This document shows positions 28,010-52,143 of a DNA stretch of 64,000 bases, in pieces. The translations under genes were made by a program, and so were the position numbers. The DNA is taken from positions 98,473-162,472 of the IMG/VR virus record IMGVR_UViG_2878528002_000001; one strand, given 5' to 3'. The notes under the pieces were generated by a model. That model did not search any database and was not told the DNA's origin. It saw nothing but the letters and a program-made list of their open reading frames with translations. The DNA comes from a virus (Duplodnaviria > Heunggongvirae > Uroviricota > Caudoviricetes). Numbering within the stretch: position 1 is the first letter of the stretch; each line of letters begins with the position of its first letter.

Positions 28010-29119
28010 ATGAAAGACATTAAGATTGTGATTGGAAGTAATTTTGGGGATGAGGGAAAAGGAATGATGACAGATTTCTTTTCCCAGAAATCAAACAGCA
28101 TTGTAGTGTGTTCAAACGGCGGAGCACAACGCGGACATACCGTAGTAACTCCAGATGGAATCAGACATGTCTTTCATCATTTTGGTTCCGGAGCATTTAA
28201 TGGAGCAAGCACGTATTTACCAGAAGATTTTATCTTAAATCCAGTTGTTTTCCGCCAGGAATTACACGAGCTTTACAGAGTAAAGCATCTTCCCGCAACA
28301 TATATTCATAATGATTGTATGGTCACAACTCCATGGGATATGATGGCAAATCAGATTGTTGAAGAAAGTCGTGGTAAGAATAAACACGGAAGTTGTGGCA
28401 TGGGAATTTTTGAAACAATTACACGCTACAAGGCGGGAGTAGTTGATTTAGATTCTTCTATTCGCGATTATTATTTGGAACGGTTTTCGGAAGAAAATAT
28501 ACAGTTATCTGATTCATGGAAAACTCTTATTATGAATGATGATATATTCGATCATTTCTTAGATGATTTGGATTTTATGAACGAATATTGTTCTGTAATT
28601 TCTGATGACTATTTTCTAAATCTATTCGATAACATTGTATTCGAGGCAGGACAGGGTTTACTACTTGATCAGAACAATCTTGAATATTTTCCAAATTTAA
28701 CTCCTTCAAATACAGGCATTAAAAATCCTAAGAAAATTATTGAACGTGTTGAGTGGAATGATGAGATCGAGATAGAAACCTGTTATGTTACAAGAACATA
28801 TATGACGAGACACGGTGTGGGCAAGTTTCCTACTGAATGTAATAAATCGGTAATTAATGGAAAAATGTTTGATAAAACAAATGTACCTAATATTCATCAG
28901 AATTCATTAAGATACGGAACATTAGATTACGAAGAATTATGTAGTAGATGTTCAAACGATGTTAAAGATTTTGGGGATAAAAAATCTATTGCTATCACAC
29001 ATTGCAATGAATTTCCATATGATTCAAATAAAATCTCTGAAATATTTAAAGGATGGGATATTTACTATTCTAATGGAGAAATTCGGGACAGTATCAATAG
29101 AAAGTGTGATAGTTTATGA
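28010..29119 (+). CDS. adenylosuccinate synthetase (PurA) homolog; candidate PurZ-type N6-succino-2-amino-2'-deoxyadenylate synthase
   Basis: Aligns along its length with PurA: IGSNFGDEGKGMMTD (P-loop with Asp13), NGGAQRGHTVV (His41 loop), FEAGQGLLLD (FEGAQG), VGKFPTE. The guanine-specificity (T/S)KLD motif position reads ITHCNE. Confidence 0.7.
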   Translation: MKDIKIVIGSNFGDEGKGMMTDFFSQKSNSIVVCSNGGAQRGHTVVTPDGIRHVFHHFGSGAFNGASTYLPEDFILNPVVFRQELHELYRVKHLPATYIHNDCMVTTPWDMMANQIVEESRGKNKHGSCGMGIFETITRYKAGVVDLDSSIRDYYLERFSEENIQLSDSWKTLIMNDDIFDHFLDDLDFMNEYCSVISDDYFLNLFDNIVFEAGQGLLLDQNNLEYFPNLTPSNTGIKNPKKIIERVEWNDEIEIETCYVTRTYMTRHGVGKFPTECNKSVINGKMFDKTNVPNIHQNSLRYGTLDYEELCSRCSNDVKDFGDKKSIAITHCNEFPYDSNKISEIFKGWDIYYSNGEIRDSINRKCDSL

Positions 29120-45693: not shown

Positions 45694-46722
45694 ATGACGA
45701 TTGAAGAAATCAAACAGAAAGTTGCGAGTAAAGAATATAACTTTTTAAGAGAAAATGAACACCTTGGAAAGAATATTATTCTTCTTGGACTTGGTGGAAG
45801 CCATGCATACGGAACGAACACGGAAAGTTCTGATCTCGATGTTCGTGGTATCGCAGTTAATAGAAAAGAAGAAATATTATCAAATATTCGTTTTGAACAG
45901 TTTGTTAATGAAGAAACGGATACGACAATTTATTCGTTTAACAAAATAATTGCGTTGTTGTCAAATTGCAATCCTAATACAATCGAAATCCTTGGATTAA
46001 AGCCGGAACATTACCTTTATATCAATTCTGTAGGAAAAGAATTGCTTAATAATTCACATATGTTTTTATCAAAAAAATGTGTGCAATCATTCGGCGGTTA
46101 TGCAAATAGCCAGTTGCGAAGGCTAGACAATAAAGCAGTTCGTCTTGTAGGACAGGCAGAAAGAGAGAATCATATATTAAATAGTATTAAAAATGCTTTT
46201 GCAACTTTTCCTGATAAATATTTTCCATTTAAAGATGGTGATATTAAACTCTATATAGATAAAGCCGTACAGGAAGATTATGATACCGAAATTTTCATGG
46301 ACGTTAATTTGAAACACTATCCACTAAGAGATTACAAATCTATGTGGTCTGAAATGAATAATATTGTGAAAGATTATTCCAAAATCGGCAAACGGAATAA
46401 GCACGCAATTGAGCATGAAAAACTTGGCAAACATATGATGCATTTGGTTAGATTATTTTACACATGTTTTGATATTCTTGAAAATGAAAGAATTGTTACG
46501 TATAGAAAAGAAGAACATGATTTGCTCATGGATATTCGAAATGGCAAATATCTTGATGATAATCGACAGCCAATACCGGAGTTCTTTGAGTTAGTGGATG
46601 AACTCGAAAAACGATTAGATTATGATAAAGTAAATACATCTCTTCCAGATAAACCAGATTATAAGAGAATTAATGATTTTGCAATTTCCGTCAATGAACG
46701 GATTGTAAAAGGAGAATTATAA
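45694..46722 (+). CDS. Pol-beta-superfamily nucleotidyltransferase
   Basis: IILLGLGGSHAYGTNTESSDLDVRGIAV matches the GS-x(9-13)-DxD minimal nucleotidyltransferase signature. Confidence 0.6.
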   Translation: MTIEEIKQKVASKEYNFLRENEHLGKNIILLGLGGSHAYGTNTESSDLDVRGIAVNRKEEILSNIRFEQFVNEETDTTIYSFNKIIALLSNCNPNTIEILGLKPEHYLYINSVGKELLNNSHMFLSKKCVQSFGGYANSQLRRLDNKAVRLVGQAERENHILNSIKNAFATFPDKYFPFKDGDIKLYIDKAVQEDYDTEIFMDVNLKHYPLRDYKSMWSEMNNIVKDYSKIGKRNKHAIEHEKLGKHMMHLVRLFYTCFDILENERIVTYRKEEHDLLMDIRNGKYLDDNRQPIPEFFELVDELEKRLDYDKVNTSLPDKPDYKRINDFAISVNERIVKGEL

Positions 46723-47904: not shown

Positions 47905-47990
47905 TGGGCATTCGCCAAGCGGATAAGGCACCAGAATTTGACTCTGGCAGAGTAAAACTCATTACGTTGGTTCGAATCCAACATGCCCAG
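47905..47990 (+). tRNA. tRNA, anticodon UUG (Gln-type identity: U1:A72, G73) but with an 18-nt type-II extra arm
   Basis: Manual fold: acceptor TGGGCAT/ATGCCCA, D-stem GCC/GGC, anticodon stem CCAGA/TCTGG with loop ATTTGAC, extra arm CAGAGTAAAACTCATTAC (GAGT/ACTC stem), T-arm GTTGG-TTCGAAT-CCAAC. Confidence 0.6.
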
Positions 47991-47994
47991 TTTT

Positions 47995-48075
47995 GCGGAT
48001 ATGGCGGAACGGCAGACGCAGAAGACTCAAAATCTTCCGGAGAAATTCATGTGGGTTCAAATCCCACTATCCGTA
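47995..48075 (+). tRNA. tRNA-Leu (anticodon CAA), type II
   Basis: Acceptor GCGGATA/TATCCGT (G1.U72), anticodon stem GAAGA/TCTTC with loop CTCAAAA, 13-nt variable arm, T-arm GTGGG-TTCAAAT-CCCAC, A73. Confidence 0.65.
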
Positions 48076-48391
48076 TTAGGCTAATATTTGTAAGTAAGTT
48101 GCTGAAGCGCAAGGTGATTGAAAACAAAATTAGACCTAAAGTTATAACTTTTAACGCGTGTTGTGATCTGGAACCGAGTAAAGTTGGGGCTACGGCATAC
48201 TGGTTGTATGGTTTGGGTATGCATTTTTTGAGTCAGCTACAATGACGAGGGTTGTGGTGAAATGGCGAGGATGTCGGGGGTAACGCCGATGTGTAGTCGT
48301 AGTTGATGAGAAATATCTTTCAAGTTCAATGCAGCGAGGGAAGATGAACGGATCGTAGGCTTAGTATATCTTTCACGTCTAGTATTAAACC

Positions 48392-48462
48392 TGCTCGTTG
48401 GTGCAATGGTAGCACAATAGGGATGATTCCTAGTGATAAAGGTTCGATTCCTTTGCGAGCAA
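48392..48462 (+). tRNA. tRNA-like gene with canonical D- and T-arms but aberrant anticodon loop (GATGATT; apparent anticodon UGA, A at position 33)
   Basis: Acceptor TGCTCGT/GCGAGCA, D-arm GTGC-AATGGTA-GCAC, T-arm AAAGG-TTCGATT-CCTTT. The anticodon stem is only 4 bp (TAGG/CCTA) and the loop lacks U33. Confidence 0.45.
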
Positions 48463-50903: not shown

Positions 50904-52143
50904 AAAAAAGAGAATTATATATAAGAAGGTGGTGATTATGAATGTTGGTTGCATATAAATATAGATTATATCCAAACAAAGAACAGCAAATATATTTTGC
51001 AAAATGTTTTGGATGTGTACGATTCATTTATAATCGTATGCTTTCAGATAAAATTGAACATTATAAAGAAACAAAACAGAGACTTAACAATACACCAGCT
51101 CAATATAAGAAAGAATTTCCTTGGTTGAAAGAAGTTGATTCACTTGCACTAGCAAACGCACAGATGAATTTACAGACAGCTTATAATAATTTTTTCAAAA
51201 GACCAGAAGTAGGATTTCCTAAATTCAAGAGCAAGAAAAGTCATAAATATTCTTATACTACTAATAATCAAGGTGGAAACATTTATGTTTCTGACAGATA
51301 CATTAAATTACCTAAGATTGGGTTGATAAGAATAAAGAAGCATAGAGATTTTGAAGGGTTAATAAAATCGGTGGCAGTCTCTCAGAAACCATCTGGAAAA
51401 TATTATGTTTCAGTTTTGGTTGAATGTGATGAAATTGAAAAACTTCCGAAATCGGAATCTGAAATTGGAATAGATTTAGGTCTAAAAGACTTTGCTATTC
51501 TGTCGAATGAAGAAAAAATAGCTAATCCGAAATACTTATCCAAATCTGAACTCAAACTTAGGAAATTGCAAAAAGATTTATCCAGATGTCAAAAAGGTAG
51601 CAAGAATAGAAATAAGTGCAGAATAAAAGTTGCGAAGCAACATGAGAAAATTGTAAATCAAAGAAAAGATTTTCTAAACAACCTATCCAAAAGACTTATT
51701 TGTGAAAACCAAACAATATGTCTTGAGGACTTGAAAATCAAGGAAATGATGAGTAATAAACAAATATCAAAATCGGTTGCAGATGTATCATGGAGTGAAT
51801 TTGTGAGACAGCTCGAATATAAAGCACAATGGTATGAACGAGAAATTATAGAAATAAGCACATGGTTTCCGTCAAGTCAGACGTGTTCTTGTTGCGGGTA
51901 TATCAATAAAAGGATCAAAGACACAAATATTCGAGAATGGATATGTCCTAATTGCAATGTACACCACGATAGAGATATCAACGCAGCAATAAATATCCTC
52001 AATGAAGGATTGAGAATAAGAACCGCAGGAACTGTGGAGATAGCCTAAGTAAACTTGTCTCGGTAGAGATATTGACTAGGAAGCTCAGACCTCTAAGCAA
52101 AGCGTAAGGTCGTGAGTAGTTCACACAATTAGAACGAGAAGAT
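50904..52143 (+). mobile_element. IS200/IS605-family tnpB-only element (IS1341-like); ends approximate
   Basis: A single TnpB ORF with about 95 nt of structured noncoding sequence between its stop and the next gene. No tnpA is present and the exact left and right ends were not determined. Confidence 0.45.
50942..52048 (+). CDS. tnpB: TnpB (IS605 OrfB-family RNA-guided nuclease/transposase accessory protein)
   Basis: N-terminus MLVAYKYRLYPNKEQ, central RuvC-like region, C-terminal zinc finger CSCCGYINKR..WICPNCNVHHDRDINAAINI. Confidence 0.85.
   Translation: MLVAYKYRLYPNKEQQIYFAKCFGCVRFIYNRMLSDKIEHYKETKQRLNNTPAQYKKEFPWLKEVDSLALANAQMNLQTAYNNFFKRPEVGFPKFKSKKSHKYSYTTNNQGGNIYVSDRYIKLPKIGLIRIKKHRDFEGLIKSVAVSQKPSGKYYVSVLVECDEIEKLPKSESEIGIDLGLKDFAILSNEEKIANPKYLSKSELKLRKLQKDLSRCQKGSKNRNKCRIKVAKQHEKIVNQRKDFLNNLSKRLICENQTICLEDLKIKEMMSNKQISKSVADVSWSEFVRQLEYKAQWYEREIIEISTWFPSSQTCSCCGYINKRIKDTNIREWICPNCNVHHDRDINAAINILNEGLRIRTAGTVEIA

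What the first reader, a model, noticed from the sequence alone, without database searches (positions are those of the whole stretch)
47905..47990. tRNA with glutamine identity (UUG anticodon, U1:A72, G73) on a type-II scaffold with an 18-nt extra arm
My manual fold gives clean acceptor, D, anticodon and T arms, and a stable GAGT-AAAA-ACTC hairpin in the variable region. Bacterial tRNA-Gln is normally class I with a 4-5 nt variable loop. A Gln-decoding tRNA with a Leu/Ser/Tyr-like long arm is odd. It might be a chimeric or hijacked tRNA, it might be mischarged to alter decoding, or my anticodon-stem parse might be wrong. It lies 4 nt upstream of a normal tRNA-Leu(CAA).
Basis: seen in the sequence. 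Interest (0 to 1): 0.6.

Follow-up and report, generated by a model that had tools for sequence, protein, structure and literature searches.

The report
Phage glutamine tRNA with extra hairpin
A large gut phage carries a real glutamine tRNA with a 12-base hairpin inserted into its normally short variable loop; similar glutamine tRNAs turn up repeatedly in phage and metagenome DNA but almost never in bacterial genomes, and I found no description of them.

Summary
ARAGORN, Rfam's tRNA model (50.9 bits) and the minimum-energy fold all give an 86-nt tRNA at 47905-47990 (+). It has anticodon UUG, U1:A72, G73 and an 18-nt variable region with a GAGU/ACUC hairpin, and it lies 4 nt before a tRNA-Leu(CAA).

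The "type-II scaffold / chimeric / mischarged" reading is not supported.
- Sister phages carry ordinary 74-nt tRNA-Gln(UUG) genes with identical acceptor and T arms. The window gene equals one of them plus 12 nt (GAGUAAAACUCA) inserted between A45 and U46, plus two compensatory anticodon-stem pair changes.
- All checked GlnRS/GatCAB identity elements are present.
- The features that define Ser, Leu and Tyr identity are absent.

The gene is not a one-off. The same 86-nt sequence sits in a second, diverged phage contig. A pattern scan found long-variable-arm tRNA-Gln(UUG) in 20 viral contigs and 54 metagenome contigs, but only 2 hits among 185,579 species genomes. The hairpins fall into about a dozen sequence classes, always at the same insertion site.

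Best reading: a working Gln decoder carrying a tolerated, possibly anti-defence, variable-arm hairpin. Its function is inferred, not shown. I rate it a new variant of a known kind, of moderate interest.

The parts
47905..47990 (+). tRNA-Gln(UUG), 86 nt, no encoded CCA
   Evidence: ARAGORN; Rfam RF00005, 50.9 bits, full-length match; cloverleaf is the minimum-energy fold; the identical sequence occurs in a second phage contig, L234.
47931..47947 (+). Anticodon arm: stem CCAGA/UCUGG, loop AUUUGAC, anticodon UUG at 47938-47940
   Evidence: Compared with sister phage L157/L095 (stem CAGGA/UCCUG), pairs 28:42 and 29:41 are both changed with compensation. Compared with L145 (stem CAGCA/UGCUG), three pairs differ.
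47948..47965 (+). Variable region, 18 nt: C44 A45, hairpin GAGU-AAA-ACUC (47950-47960), then AUUAC ending in C48
   Evidence: MFE of the isolated region is -2.3 kcal/mol against -0.17 for shuffles.
47950..47961 (+). The 12 nt (GAGUAAAACUCA) that are extra relative to the 6-nt variable loop CAUUAC of sister phage L157/L095
   Evidence: Sequence comparison. The alignment with L145 shows an 11-column gap at the same place.
47991..47994 (+). TTTT spacer between the two tRNAs (probable co-transcript)
   Evidence: Co-transcription is inferred from the spacing only.
47995..48075 (+). tRNA-Leu(CAA), an ordinary class II tRNA with A73 and a 13-nt variable arm
   Evidence: Rfam 56.8 bits; ARAGORN.
48392..48462 (+). 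Third member of the cluster: a 71-nt tRNA-like gene with a non-canonical anticodon loop (context only, not part of the finding)
   Evidence: ARAGORN; Rfam 45.1 bits, listed only by the E-value-threshold search of this stretch, although that is above the gathering score; conserved in L145 and L234.

Best explanation
This is a functional, phage-encoded glutamine tRNA (anticodon UUG, reading CAA and, by wobble, CAG). Its body is an ordinary bacterial-type tRNA-Gln, and its 5-6 nt variable loop has been expanded by a 12-nt insertion into a small hairpin arm between positions 45 and 46.

Inferred steps:
- It is transcribed together with the tRNA-Leu(CAA) gene 4 nt downstream, processed, and given its CCA end by host enzymes.
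- It is charged with glutamine, either by the host GlnRS or by non-discriminating GluRS followed by GatCAB. All identity elements those enzymes read are intact: U1:A72, G2:C71, G3:C70, G10:C25, U35, G36, A37 and G73.
- The hairpin is tolerated because these class I enzymes bind the face of the tRNA opposite the variable loop, and because EF-Tu and the ribosome already handle long-arm tRNAs.

The insertion is recent in this lineage. It arrived within a short patch (positions 27-48) that also carries compensatory anticodon-stem changes, which is most simply explained by gene conversion from another long-arm tRNA-Gln or by fast local evolution.

Similar hairpins recur in many unrelated phage tRNA-Gln genes. 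The arm is therefore at least harmless. It may be useful, for example by making the phage tRNA a poor substrate for a host tRNA-cleaving defence. Which of these applies is not shown.
For: Shown:
1. Three independent methods agree on the cloverleaf and the anticodon.
2. The 40 best-matching tRNAs among about 670 collected are all tRNA-Gln(UUG). The best, L095 (the same contig as L157, which was retrieved through a neighbouring protein rather than through the tRNA), matches at 69 of 73 aligned positions, and its variable loop CAUUAC equals the window's minus 12 nt.
3. The closest genome, L145 (99% identical neighbouring protein), has the same Gln-Leu-third-tRNA cluster with a 74-nt tRNA-Gln. Differences are 9 of 23 positions plus an 11-nt gap inside positions 27-48, and 0 of 51 in the rest of the tRNA.
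4. The identical 86-nt gene occurs in L234, whose flanks differ from the window's (upstream about 90% identical and L145-like; about 3 kb inserted downstream). It is therefore maintained in more than one genome and is not an assembly error.
5. The same search pattern found long-variable-region tRNA-Gln(UUG) in 20 viral contigs, 54 metagenome contigs and 2 hits among 185,579 species genomes. Of those two, one is a Clostridiales MAG contig that carries a tRNA array and the other does not fold as a cloverleaf.
6. Thirty-nine unique sequences have a variable region of 13 nt or more. They keep the same identity profile as 79 normal-length ones: 1:72 U:A or A:U, G2:C71, G73, loop CUUUGAC, C44 A45 and C48. 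Fifteen of the 20 canonical stem pairs show compensatory changes.
7. The inserts form hairpins beyond chance: mean -3.9 against -1.5 kcal/mol, and 12 of 29 are matched by 5% or fewer of their shuffles. Their stems differ in sequence, for example GAGAG/CUCUC, GGCGUC/GGCGCC, GGGUGA/UCACCC and GGUG/CACU.
8. Clostridium phage Amboise has a tRNA-Gln annotated by tRNAscan-SE that is 91.7% identical over positions 10-45.

From the literature:
- E. coli Gln identity lies in the anticodon, the acceptor stem, G73 and the 10:25 pair.
- A tRNA-Ser amber suppressor, a long-arm tRNA, became a glutamine acceptor after two acceptor-stem pairs were changed (review PMC9976931).
- U1:A72 is the mark read by the amidotransferase (same review).

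From my own knowledge, not tested here: class I synthetases such as GlnRS approach the tRNA from the D-arm/minor-groove side and leave the variable loop exposed to solvent.
Against: - There is no expression, processing or charging data for this or any other long-arm tRNA-Gln.
- The closest relatives do without the hairpin, so it is dispensable for the phage clade.
- Position 32 is A, whereas most relatives have C or U. The D loop has one extra nucleotide compared with L145, and the effect on GatCAB, which is sensitive to D-loop size, is unknown.
- G73, G2:C71, C11:G24 and a hairpin arm are also part of bacterial serine identity, so some serylation cannot be excluded by sequence alone.
- Codon use gives no clear reason for the gene: CAA is 46% and CAG 54% of Gln codons.
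- The enrichment in phages is measured with one sequence pattern.
Confidence: 0.75

Rival explanations
1. Anti-defence or orthogonality module. The hairpin is adaptive. It changes the shape of the variable/anticodon-arm region so that a host, or rival-element, tRNA-cleaving nuclease that depletes host tRNA-Gln cannot cut the phage copy, or is titrated by it. This refines the best explanation rather than excluding it.
For: - Long-arm tRNA-Gln(UUG) is recurrent in viral and metagenome contigs and nearly absent from species genomes.
- The hairpins fall into about a dozen sequence classes, all at one site.
- In the window lineage the changes are confined to the anticodon stem plus the variable region, 9 of 23 positions against 0 of 51 elsewhere.
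- Other class-I isotypes with variable regions of 10 nt or more are commoner in loci that also have a long-arm Gln: 10 of 112 against 6 of 267, Fisher p = 0.009.
- Published precedent: the distinctive longer variable loop of phage SP15/T5 tRNA-Tyr is what makes it resistant to, and inhibitory for, Retron-Eco7 PtuAB, and Septu cuts tRNA-Tyr in the variable arm (PMC12673091; PMC13096335). Phage tRNAs also escape anticodon nucleases through loop changes (PMC10264068).
- An RlaP-family 'RNA repair pathway' nucleotidyltransferase lies 1.2 kb upstream.
Against: - I know of no nuclease that targets tRNA-Gln at the variable loop, and none was identified here.
- The host is unknown.
- No partner protein is shared among the neighbourhoods of long-arm Gln genes.
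- The sister phages with short loops are evidently viable.
- The pattern could equally reflect relaxed constraint on phage tRNAs.
- The co-occurrence statistic comes from loci chosen by a sequence pattern, and related contigs are not independent.
Confidence: 0.27
2. Dual or switched identity. The long arm plus G73 makes it a SerRS substrate (or a LeuRS/TyrRS substrate), so that CAA/CAG is partly decoded as another amino acid, as with nematode nev-tRNAs.
For: - G73, G2:C71, C11:G24 and a hairpin arm are all present.
- Serine identity relies mainly on the variable arm and does not use the anticodon (PMC9976931).
- nev-tRNAs show that class II tRNAs with foreign anticodons exist and are mischarged (PMC3333845).
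Against: - The body is tRNA-Gln, not Ser, Leu or Tyr.
- U1:A72 replaces the G1:C72 that is conserved in bacterial tRNA-Ser. Changing acceptor pairs 1:72 and 3:70 is exactly what converted a tRNA-Ser suppressor to Gln identity.
- G73 excludes Leu and Tyr, which use A73.
- G15:C48 is present instead of the A15:U48 needed for E. coli Leu identity.
- The stem is only 4 bp with 2 and 5 unpaired flanking nt, against the usual 1/1 and 5-bp stems in phage tRNA-Ser.
- All three stop codons are used and the reading frames are intact, so nothing suggests recoding.
Confidence: 0.04
3. Disabled gene. The insertion broke the tRNA and the gene is a decaying remnant.
For: The closest relatives have the uninterrupted form. 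Many related phages carry no tRNA at this locus at all. A32 is unusual.
Against: - The acceptor, D and T arms are unchanged, and the anticodon stem changed only through compensated pairs.
- The tertiary-pair nucleotides U8, A14, G15, G18, G19, C48 and the T-loop sequence UUCGAAU are intact.
- The identical sequence is kept in two diverged genomes.
- Dozens of other long-arm Gln genes keep all four stems with covariation.
- The Rfam score is well above threshold.
Confidence: 0.07
4. Non-translational tRNA-like role. The hairpin would be a handle for a phage protein, for example in decoy, primer, packaging or regulatory use, or as an amino-acid donor for a tRNA-dependent transferase.
For: Phage tRNAs can act as defence inhibitors (PMC11464382 and PMC11555353, listed). 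A phage enzyme that uses charged tRNA to modify DNA is known (PMC13219725). The neighbouring third 'tRNA' is clearly non-canonical.
Against: The anticodon and every Gln identity element are conserved across the long-arm family exactly as in normal tRNA-Gln, which points to decoding. No conserved partner gene was found.
Confidence: 0.06

Closest known systems
Canonical bacterial/phage class I tRNA-Gln(UUG), e.g. the 74-nt genes of sister phages L145 and L157/L095, and the tRNAscan-annotated tRNA-Gln of Clostridium phage Amboise
   Same: Acceptor stem, D arm (GCCAAGCGG.UAAGGC), anticodon loop, T arm, discriminator G73, U1:A72, C44 A45 ... C48, and the genomic position directly before tRNA-Leu(CAA).
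   Different: The variable region is 18 nt with a 4-bp hairpin instead of 4-7 nt. Two anticodon-stem pairs are exchanged, there is A32, and the D loop has one extra nucleotide.
Class II (long-arm) tRNAs: bacterial tRNA-Leu, tRNA-Ser, tRNA-Tyr and tRNA-Sec
   Same: A hairpin arm emerges between positions 45 and 46/48. The overall length is 86 nt.
   Different: The body and identity elements are Gln. The flanking unpaired nucleotides number 2 and 5, against 1/1 in Ser and 1/2 in Leu. There is no G1:C72 and no A73, and the Levitt pair is G15:C48.
Nematode nev-tRNAs and eukaryotic noncanonical V-arm-containing tRNAs (PMC3333845; Hamashima et al. 2016, seen only as a reference in PMC5389517)
   Same: A long variable arm combined with an anticodon that does not belong to Leu, Ser or Tyr.
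   Different: By their description, nev-tRNAs are class II tRNAs that carry a foreign anticodon and are charged with leucine. Here a class I tRNA-Gln acquired an arm and keeps its Gln identity marks. The source is a phage, not a eukaryote.
Allo-tRNAs and other tRNAs with novel cloverleaves (PMC5389517, PMC7609411)
   Same: Found in metagenomes and phages. A long arm with G73 is combined with diverse anticodons.
   Different: Allo-tRNAs have 8/4 or 9/3 acceptor/T stems and a tRNA-Sec-like D arm. This tRNA has the standard 7/5 arrangement and a standard Gln D arm.
Phage SP15/T5 tRNA-Tyr, whose distinctive longer variable loop defeats Retron-Eco7 PtuAB (PMC12673091, PMC13096335)
   Same: A phage copy of a tRNA differs from the cellular form mainly in the variable arm. 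This offers a possible functional analogy.
   Different: tRNA-Tyr is already a long-arm tRNA. For tRNA-Gln no variable-loop nuclease is known, and nothing was tested here.
Phage T4 tRNA-Gln/tRNA-Leu gene pair, processed from a dimeric precursor (my own knowledge, not checked here)
   Same: Gln and Leu tRNA genes are adjacent, separated by a few nucleotides, in a large lytic phage.
   Different: T4 tRNA-Gln is an ordinary class I tRNA. There is no sequence relationship to this phage.

Membership tests
tRNA (Rfam RF00005) | Cloverleaf with a 7-bp acceptor stem, D arm, 5-bp anticodon stem with a 7-nt loop, and a 5-bp T stem with a UUCRANY loop; score above the gathering threshold | tested here: met
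   50.9 bits against 29, model positions 1-71 all matched; ARAGORN; MFE cloverleaf.
tRNA-Gln (bacterial type) | Anticodon YUG with U35, G36 and A37 | tested here: met
   Loop AUUUGAC, giving U34 U35 G36 A37.
tRNA-Gln (bacterial type) | Weak first pair U1:A72 (read by GlnRS, GluRS2 and GatCAB), G2:C71, G3:C70, discriminator G73 and G10:C25 | tested here: met
   Acceptor UGGGCAU/AUGCCCA plus G73; G10 and C25 in the D stem GCC/GGC. The identity set is taken from PMC9976931. The same profile is seen in 79 normal and 39 long-arm phage tRNA-Gln genes.
tRNA-Gln (bacterial type) | Sequence relationship to recognised tRNA-Gln genes | tested here: met
   The top 40 matches are all tRNA-Gln(UUG). 69 of 73 positions match L095, and 69 of 71 aligned positions match L145, which was retrieved through a protein. 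91.7% identity over positions 10-45 to the tRNAscan-annotated tRNA-Gln of phage Amboise.
tRNA-Gln (bacterial type) | Class I variable loop of 4-5 nt | tested here: not met
   18 nt with a hairpin. Among the parsed unique phage tRNA-Gln(UUG) genes, 80 of 134 have 4-5 nt.
tRNA-Gln (bacterial type) | Actual charging with Gln, directly or through Glu-tRNA-Gln | not testable with these tools
   Needs an aminoacylation assay or acid-gel northern blot.
tRNA-Ser (bacterial class II) | G1:C72 and G2:C71 conserved; G73; long arm with a characteristic orientation | tested here: not met
   U1:A72 instead of G1:C72 (criterion from PMC9976931). The arm flanks are 2/5 unpaired nt against the usual 1/1 in 47 phage tRNA-Ser arms, and the stem is 4 bp against a mode of 5. 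G2:C71 and G73 are present.
tRNA-Leu (bacterial class II) | Discriminator A73; A15:U48 and D-loop elements | tested here: not met
   G73 and G15:C48 (criteria from PMC9976931).
tRNA-Tyr (bacterial class II) | A73 and anticodon GUA (criterion from my own knowledge) | tested here: not met
   G73 and anticodon UUG.
Allo-tRNA / tRNA-Sec-like | 8/4 or 9/3 acceptor/T-stem arrangement, long D stem with a tetraloop | tested here: not met
   Standard 7/5 arrangement and a 3-4 bp D stem with a 8-10 nt loop (criterion from PMC5389517).
nev-/nov-tRNA type (class II body with a foreign anticodon) | Body derived from tRNA-Leu or tRNA-Ser, with only the anticodon foreign | tested here: not met
   The body is tRNA-Gln. 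Best shared identity with any tRNA-Leu is 0.72 and with any tRNA-Ser 0.78 of 72 positions, against about 1.0 for Gln. That comparison set is enriched for Gln by the way it was collected.

The most novel reading that the evidence does not exclude
Hairpin-bearing variable arms on class I tRNAs (Gln here; Lys, Trp, Asn, Glu, His, Ile and Arg in other phage tRNA clusters) are a phage-specific adaptation. On this reading they are a structural 'armour' or decoy that lets phage tRNAs escape or inhibit host tRNA-cleaving immune nucleases while remaining substrates for the host charging enzymes. That would extend the tRNA-Tyr/Retron-Eco7 variable-loop precedent to tRNAs that normally have no arm at all.
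Probability: 0.25. Interest if true: 0.8.

Novelty: new variant of a known kind. Interest (0 to 1): 0.5.

Why it matters
Textbooks restrict long variable arms in bacteria to tRNA-Leu, Ser, Tyr and Sec. A recurrent glutamine tRNA with such an arm, found in phage and metagenome DNA but almost never in bacterial genomes, shows that the class I/class II division is leaky in viruses.

It also gives a natural test set of sister phages that differ almost only by the hairpin. That set can address three questions:
- How much extra structure do GlnRS, ND-GluRS/GatCAB, EF-Tu and the ribosome tolerate?
- Do variable-arm changes protect phage tRNAs from tRNA-targeting defence systems, an active topic?
- Could such arms serve as handles for engineering orthogonal tRNAs?

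If the arm proves neutral, the finding still matters for annotation. Length-based or isotype-based filters would mislabel these genes.

Tried and rejected
- Megablast of the 1-kb region against GenBank phages found no match.
- The nearest GenBank phage by DNA polymerase (MT835469.1, 75.8% aa identity) has no tRNA within 20 kb of the polymerase.
- An exact search for the anticodon arm in IMG/VR gave one unrelated 79-nt tRNA-Gln.
- blastn of the tRNA against E. coli genomes found no match; the query is too short and divergent. The cellular comparison therefore rests on the pattern scan of species genomes.
- One of the two genome hits, the Salinisphaera MAG (L024), does not fold as a cloverleaf and sits next to a normal copy. 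I set it aside as a probable degenerate duplicate.
- A second pattern aimed at the AGAG...CUC hairpin class without the D-arm constraint added only 2 contigs and no window-type variant.
- MAFFT plus RNAalifold on 20 long-arm sequences recovered the four canonical stems but not the variable stem, because arms of unequal length were not aligned by structure. I relied instead on per-sequence folding against shuffles and on reading the stems class by class.
- A search for a protein partner shared by the neighbourhoods of long-arm Gln genes (72 loci, 1000 ORFs, all-against-all BLASTP) found nothing except IS200/IS605-type transposase homologues.
- Pfam and PHROGs scans of the flanking ORFs gave no synthetase, amidotransferase or RNA ligase.
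- Codon-compensation as the reason for the gene is not supported by the window's own codon use; host codon use is unknown.
- An intron or other excised element was considered and rejected. Twelve nucleotides is far too small for a group I intron, bacteria and phages lack the archaeal splicing endonuclease (my own knowledge), and the site is the normal class II arm site.
- Seven literature searches found no description of a long-arm tRNA-Gln.
Full report
**Setting.** The window is part of a large, low-GC (about 32%) phage genome. Every ORF of 150 aa or more in the window lies on the + strand. It encodes a DnaE-type polymerase, a primase-helicase, a PurZ-like enzyme and other phage replication genes. 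The nearest GenBank record is an unannotated 176-kb human-faecal phage with 75.8% aa identity in the polymerase. The next nearest are Clostridium and Clostridioides phages at about 40%. The best IMG/VR relative is a 201-kb contig, L145. The source is therefore probably a jumbo phage of a gut Firmicute.

- ARAGORN finds three tRNA genes in the window. One is tRNA-Gln(ttg) at exactly 47905-47990.
- Rfam's tRNA model matches the same interval from model position 1 to 71 at 50.9 bits (threshold 29). It places the surplus nucleotides as an insertion in the variable region.
- RNAfold's minimum-energy structure is the cloverleaf plus a fifth hairpin, and no shuffle of 200 folds as well.
- Reading the sequence gives: UGGGCAU | UC | GCC-AAGCGGAUAA-GGC | A | CCAGA-AUUUGAC-UCUGG | CAGAGUAAAACUCAUUAC | GUUGG-UUCGAAU-CCAAC | AUGCCCA | G.
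- The one slip is that the hairpin is GAGU-AAA-ACUC, not GAGT-AAAA-ACTC.
- A TTTT spacer separates it from a normal tRNA-Leu(CAA) at 47995-48075 (56.8 bits).

**2. What is it derived from?** I fetched relatives of the phage through the nucleotidyltransferase gene 1.2 kb upstream, which gave 58 loci, and called tRNAs in them.
- L145, with a 99% identical protein, has the same three-gene cluster, but its tRNA-Gln is 74 nt.
- The alignment and the count show 0 differences in 51 positions of the acceptor, D and T arms. Positions 27-48 show 9 substitutions in 23 positions plus an 11-nt gap.
- A second relative (L157, the same contig as L095) has a 74-nt tRNA-Gln with identical acceptor and T arms and the variable loop CAUUAC. 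The window's CA-GAGUAAAACUCA-UUAC is that loop plus 12 nt.
- Compared with that relative, anticodon-stem pairs 28:42 and 29:41 are both changed with compensation.
The collection is enriched for Gln, but L145, L154, L157 and L174 were retrieved through a protein, not through the tRNA.
- Clostridium phage Amboise has a tRNAscan-SE-annotated tRNA-Gln that is 91.7% identical over positions 10-45.
- The gene is therefore a tRNA-Gln that gained an arm, not a Leu/Ser/Tyr-type tRNA that gained a Gln anticodon.

**3. Is it an accident of one genome?** No.
- A metagenome contig, L234, carries the identical 86-nt tRNA-Gln and the identical tRNA-Leu.
- Its upstream flank is L145-like (it shares the AAACG indel and two substitutions). 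It also has about 3 kb inserted before the third tRNA, including homologues of the window's transposase-family gene.
- Two distinct genomes therefore keep the long form. The mosaic pattern fits exchange of a short internal patch; this is inference, and no donor was identified.

**4. How widespread is it?** I scanned for a pattern that fixes the Gln D arm, the UUUGA of the anticodon loop and the T loop, and that requires a variable region of 10-24 nt.

| Collection | Contigs with a long-arm match |
|---|---|
| IMG/VR viral contigs | 20 |
| Metagenome contigs | 54 |
| 185,579 species-representative genomes | 2 |

- ARAGORN calls every one of the 20 viral and 54 metagenome matches tRNA-Gln(ttg), at 78-94 nt.
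- Of the two genome hits, one is a 45-kb Clostridiales MAG contig carrying a tRNA array. The other does not fold as a cloverleaf and sits next to a normal copy.
- Many carriers are tRNA clusters of large phage contigs. One group of about 45-kb phages carries the long-arm gene as its only tRNA in the stretch held.
- GenBank holds an unannotated copy of that type, MT838775.1.

**5. Anatomy across the family.**
- Forty-six unique sequences have a variable region of 9 nt or more.
- The insert always lies between C44 A45 and a 3' tail ending in C48.
- The hairpins fall into about a dozen sequence classes with different stems, including GAGU/ACUC, GAG/CUC, AGAG/CUCU, GAGAG/CUCUC, GGCGUC/GGCGCC, GGGUGA/UCACCC, GGUG/CACU, GCAGA/UCUGC and GGUGGG/CCCUGC. 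A few are 10-18 nt and unstructured.
- Within the class that shares the frame CAA-stem-loop-stem-GCYC, stem positions 2-4 change on both sides while staying paired.
- Folded alone, the inserts average -3.9 kcal/mol against -1.5 for shuffles, and 12 of 29 are matched by 5% or fewer of their shuffles.
- The long-arm genes keep the same identity-element profile as 79 normal-length phage tRNA-Gln genes.
- Fifteen of the 20 canonical stem pairs show compensatory changes in a 20-sequence alignment.
- These are evolving as working tRNAs.

**6. Does the arm look like a Ser, Leu or Tyr arm?** No. I used the class II tRNAs present in the same loci as a yardstick.

| tRNA | Unpaired nt 5' / 3' of the arm stem | Stem length |
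|---|---|---|
| tRNA-Ser | mostly 1 / 1 | mode 5 bp |
| tRNA-Leu | mostly 1 / 2 | 3-4 bp |
| Long-arm tRNA-Gln | 2-3 / usually 4 | 3-6 bp |
| Window tRNA-Gln | 2 / 5 | 4 bp |

- Together with U1:A72, G73 and G15:C48, this fails the defining features of Ser, Leu and Tyr identity. Bacterial tRNA-Ser conserves G1:C72, and Leu and Tyr need A73. The Ser and Leu criteria come from PMC9976931; the Tyr criterion is my own knowledge.
- Every glutamine element listed in that review is present: the anticodon, the 1:72 and 3:70 pairs, G73 and the 10:25 pair.
- The review also records that a tRNA-Ser amber suppressor became a glutamine acceptor after two acceptor-stem pairs were changed. A long arm therefore does not stop E. 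coli GlnRS. (I infer that the suppressor kept its arm.)
- From my own knowledge, class I enzymes such as GlnRS and GluRS bind the D-arm side and leave the variable loop in solvent.

**7. Mechanism.**
- The best-supported reading is a working Gln decoder whose extra arm is tolerated.
- Why the arm recurs in phages is open.
- The window's own codon use gives no reason for the gene. CAA is 46% and CAG 54% of Gln codons, all three stop codons are used, and there is no sign of recoding.
- No protein partner is shared by the neighbourhoods of long-arm genes.
- No synthetase or amidotransferase lies nearby.
- Three observations hint at selection rather than drift:
  - The family is scarce in cellular genomes.
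  - In the window lineage the changes are confined to the anticodon stem and variable region.
  - Other class I isotypes (Lys, Trp, His, Arg, Ile, Cys) with variable regions of 10 nt or more are commoner in loci that also have a long-arm Gln: 10 of 112 against 6 of 267, Fisher p = 0.009. These loci are not phylogenetically independent.
- Published work shows that a phage tRNA-Tyr's distinctive variable loop decides whether Retron-Eco7 PtuAB can be neutralised, and that Septu cuts tRNA-Tyr in the variable arm.
- An anti-nuclease role is therefore a reasonable but untested refinement, which I put at about 0.25-0.3.

**8. Comparison with known kinds and novelty.**
- It works like, and by every sequence test except loop length is, a tRNA-Gln.
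- It resembles class II tRNAs only in having an arm.
- It differs from nev-tRNAs and allo-tRNAs, which are long-arm bodies with foreign anticodons or altered stem lengths.
- Seven full-text searches and five papers consulted gave no description of a long-arm tRNA-Gln or of arm-bearing class I tRNAs in phages. The library does not cover all journals, so prior description cannot be excluded.
- I rate it a new variant of a known kind, of moderate interest. The object is real, recurrent and testable, but its consequence may be nil.

Noticed in passing
window 48392-48462 (+); L145 8692-8762; L234 4555-4625: A 71-nt tRNA-like gene that ARAGORN calls 'tRNA-Ser(UGA)'. It has a class I 4-nt variable loop, A73, an A27.G43 mismatch and the anticodon loop GAUGAUU, so A33 replaces the universal U33 and U37 replaces a purine. 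L145 has the loop GACGACU and L234 has AAUGAUU. Pair 29:41 is A-U, G.U or G-C in the three genomes. The arm can close into a 6-bp stem with a 3-nt loop. It scores 45.1 bits on the Rfam tRNA model (above the 29-bit gathering score) but was listed only by the E-value-threshold search of this stretch, not by the whole-window gathering-threshold search. It lacks the long arm that SerRS needs, so it is probably not an ordinary decoder.
   Followed up: partly
window 48076-48391 (+): A spacer of about 315 nt between tRNA-Leu and the third tRNA. Its only listed ORFs are ones that overlap the tRNA genes. It is 96% identical to L145 (13 substitutions in 315), no less conserved than the tRNAs, and has no Rfam match at E up to 5. 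In L234 it is interrupted after about 48155 by roughly 3 kb. It may be a transcribed leader or an unknown RNA.
   Followed up: partly
window 45694-46722 (+): A nucleotidyltransferase of the RlaP family (PF10127, 'RNA repair pathway DNA polymerase beta family', E 1e-19) lies 1.2 kb upstream of the tRNA cluster. It is conserved in 58 related large-phage contigs, most of which have no tRNA within 6 kb.
   Followed up: partly
window 50942-52048 (+); L234, L007, L222, L226, L230, L255: A gene matching a PHROGs transposase family (phrog_506, E 1e-136) lies 2.5 kb downstream of the tRNAs. Homologues (30-86% identity) lie within 4 kb of long-arm tRNA-Gln genes in six other loci. In L234 they appear to lie within the ~3 kb inserted between tRNA-Leu and the third tRNA. 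Mobile elements may help shuffle these tRNA clusters.
   Followed up: partly
window 28010-29119 (+): An ORF matching PHROG 1211, which is annotated as '2-aminooxy adenylosuccinate synthetase'. I recognise this as PurZ-like (E 2e-68), which hints that the phage replaces adenine with 2-aminoadenine in its DNA.
   Followed up: no
window, 77 long + strand ORFs: Glutamine codons are 54% CAG in a 32% GC genome where GAA and AAA each make up 79% of Glu and Lys codons. This G-ending preference is specific to Gln, and the only Gln tRNA in the window has a UUG anticodon.
   Followed up: no
L060, L212, L209/L219, L218/L224/L245, L014, L249, L036, L058: Other class I isotypes in phage tRNA clusters also carry hairpin-bearing variable regions of 11-25 nt: Lys(UUU), Trp(CCA), Asn(GUU), Glu(UUC), Pro(CGG), His(GUG), Arg(UCU) and Ile(UAU). 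One contig (L060) has four such tRNAs. Arm gain is therefore not peculiar to Gln.
   Followed up: partly
L010 6950-7020; L249; L014 3584-3664; L023 4244-4323: Some contigs with long-arm tRNA-Gln also carry CUA-anticodon (amber-suppressor-type) tRNAs, or tRNAs that ARAGORN reports with four-base anticodons (cgtt, ttct). These phages may recode or frameshift. The window itself shows no sign of this.
   Followed up: no
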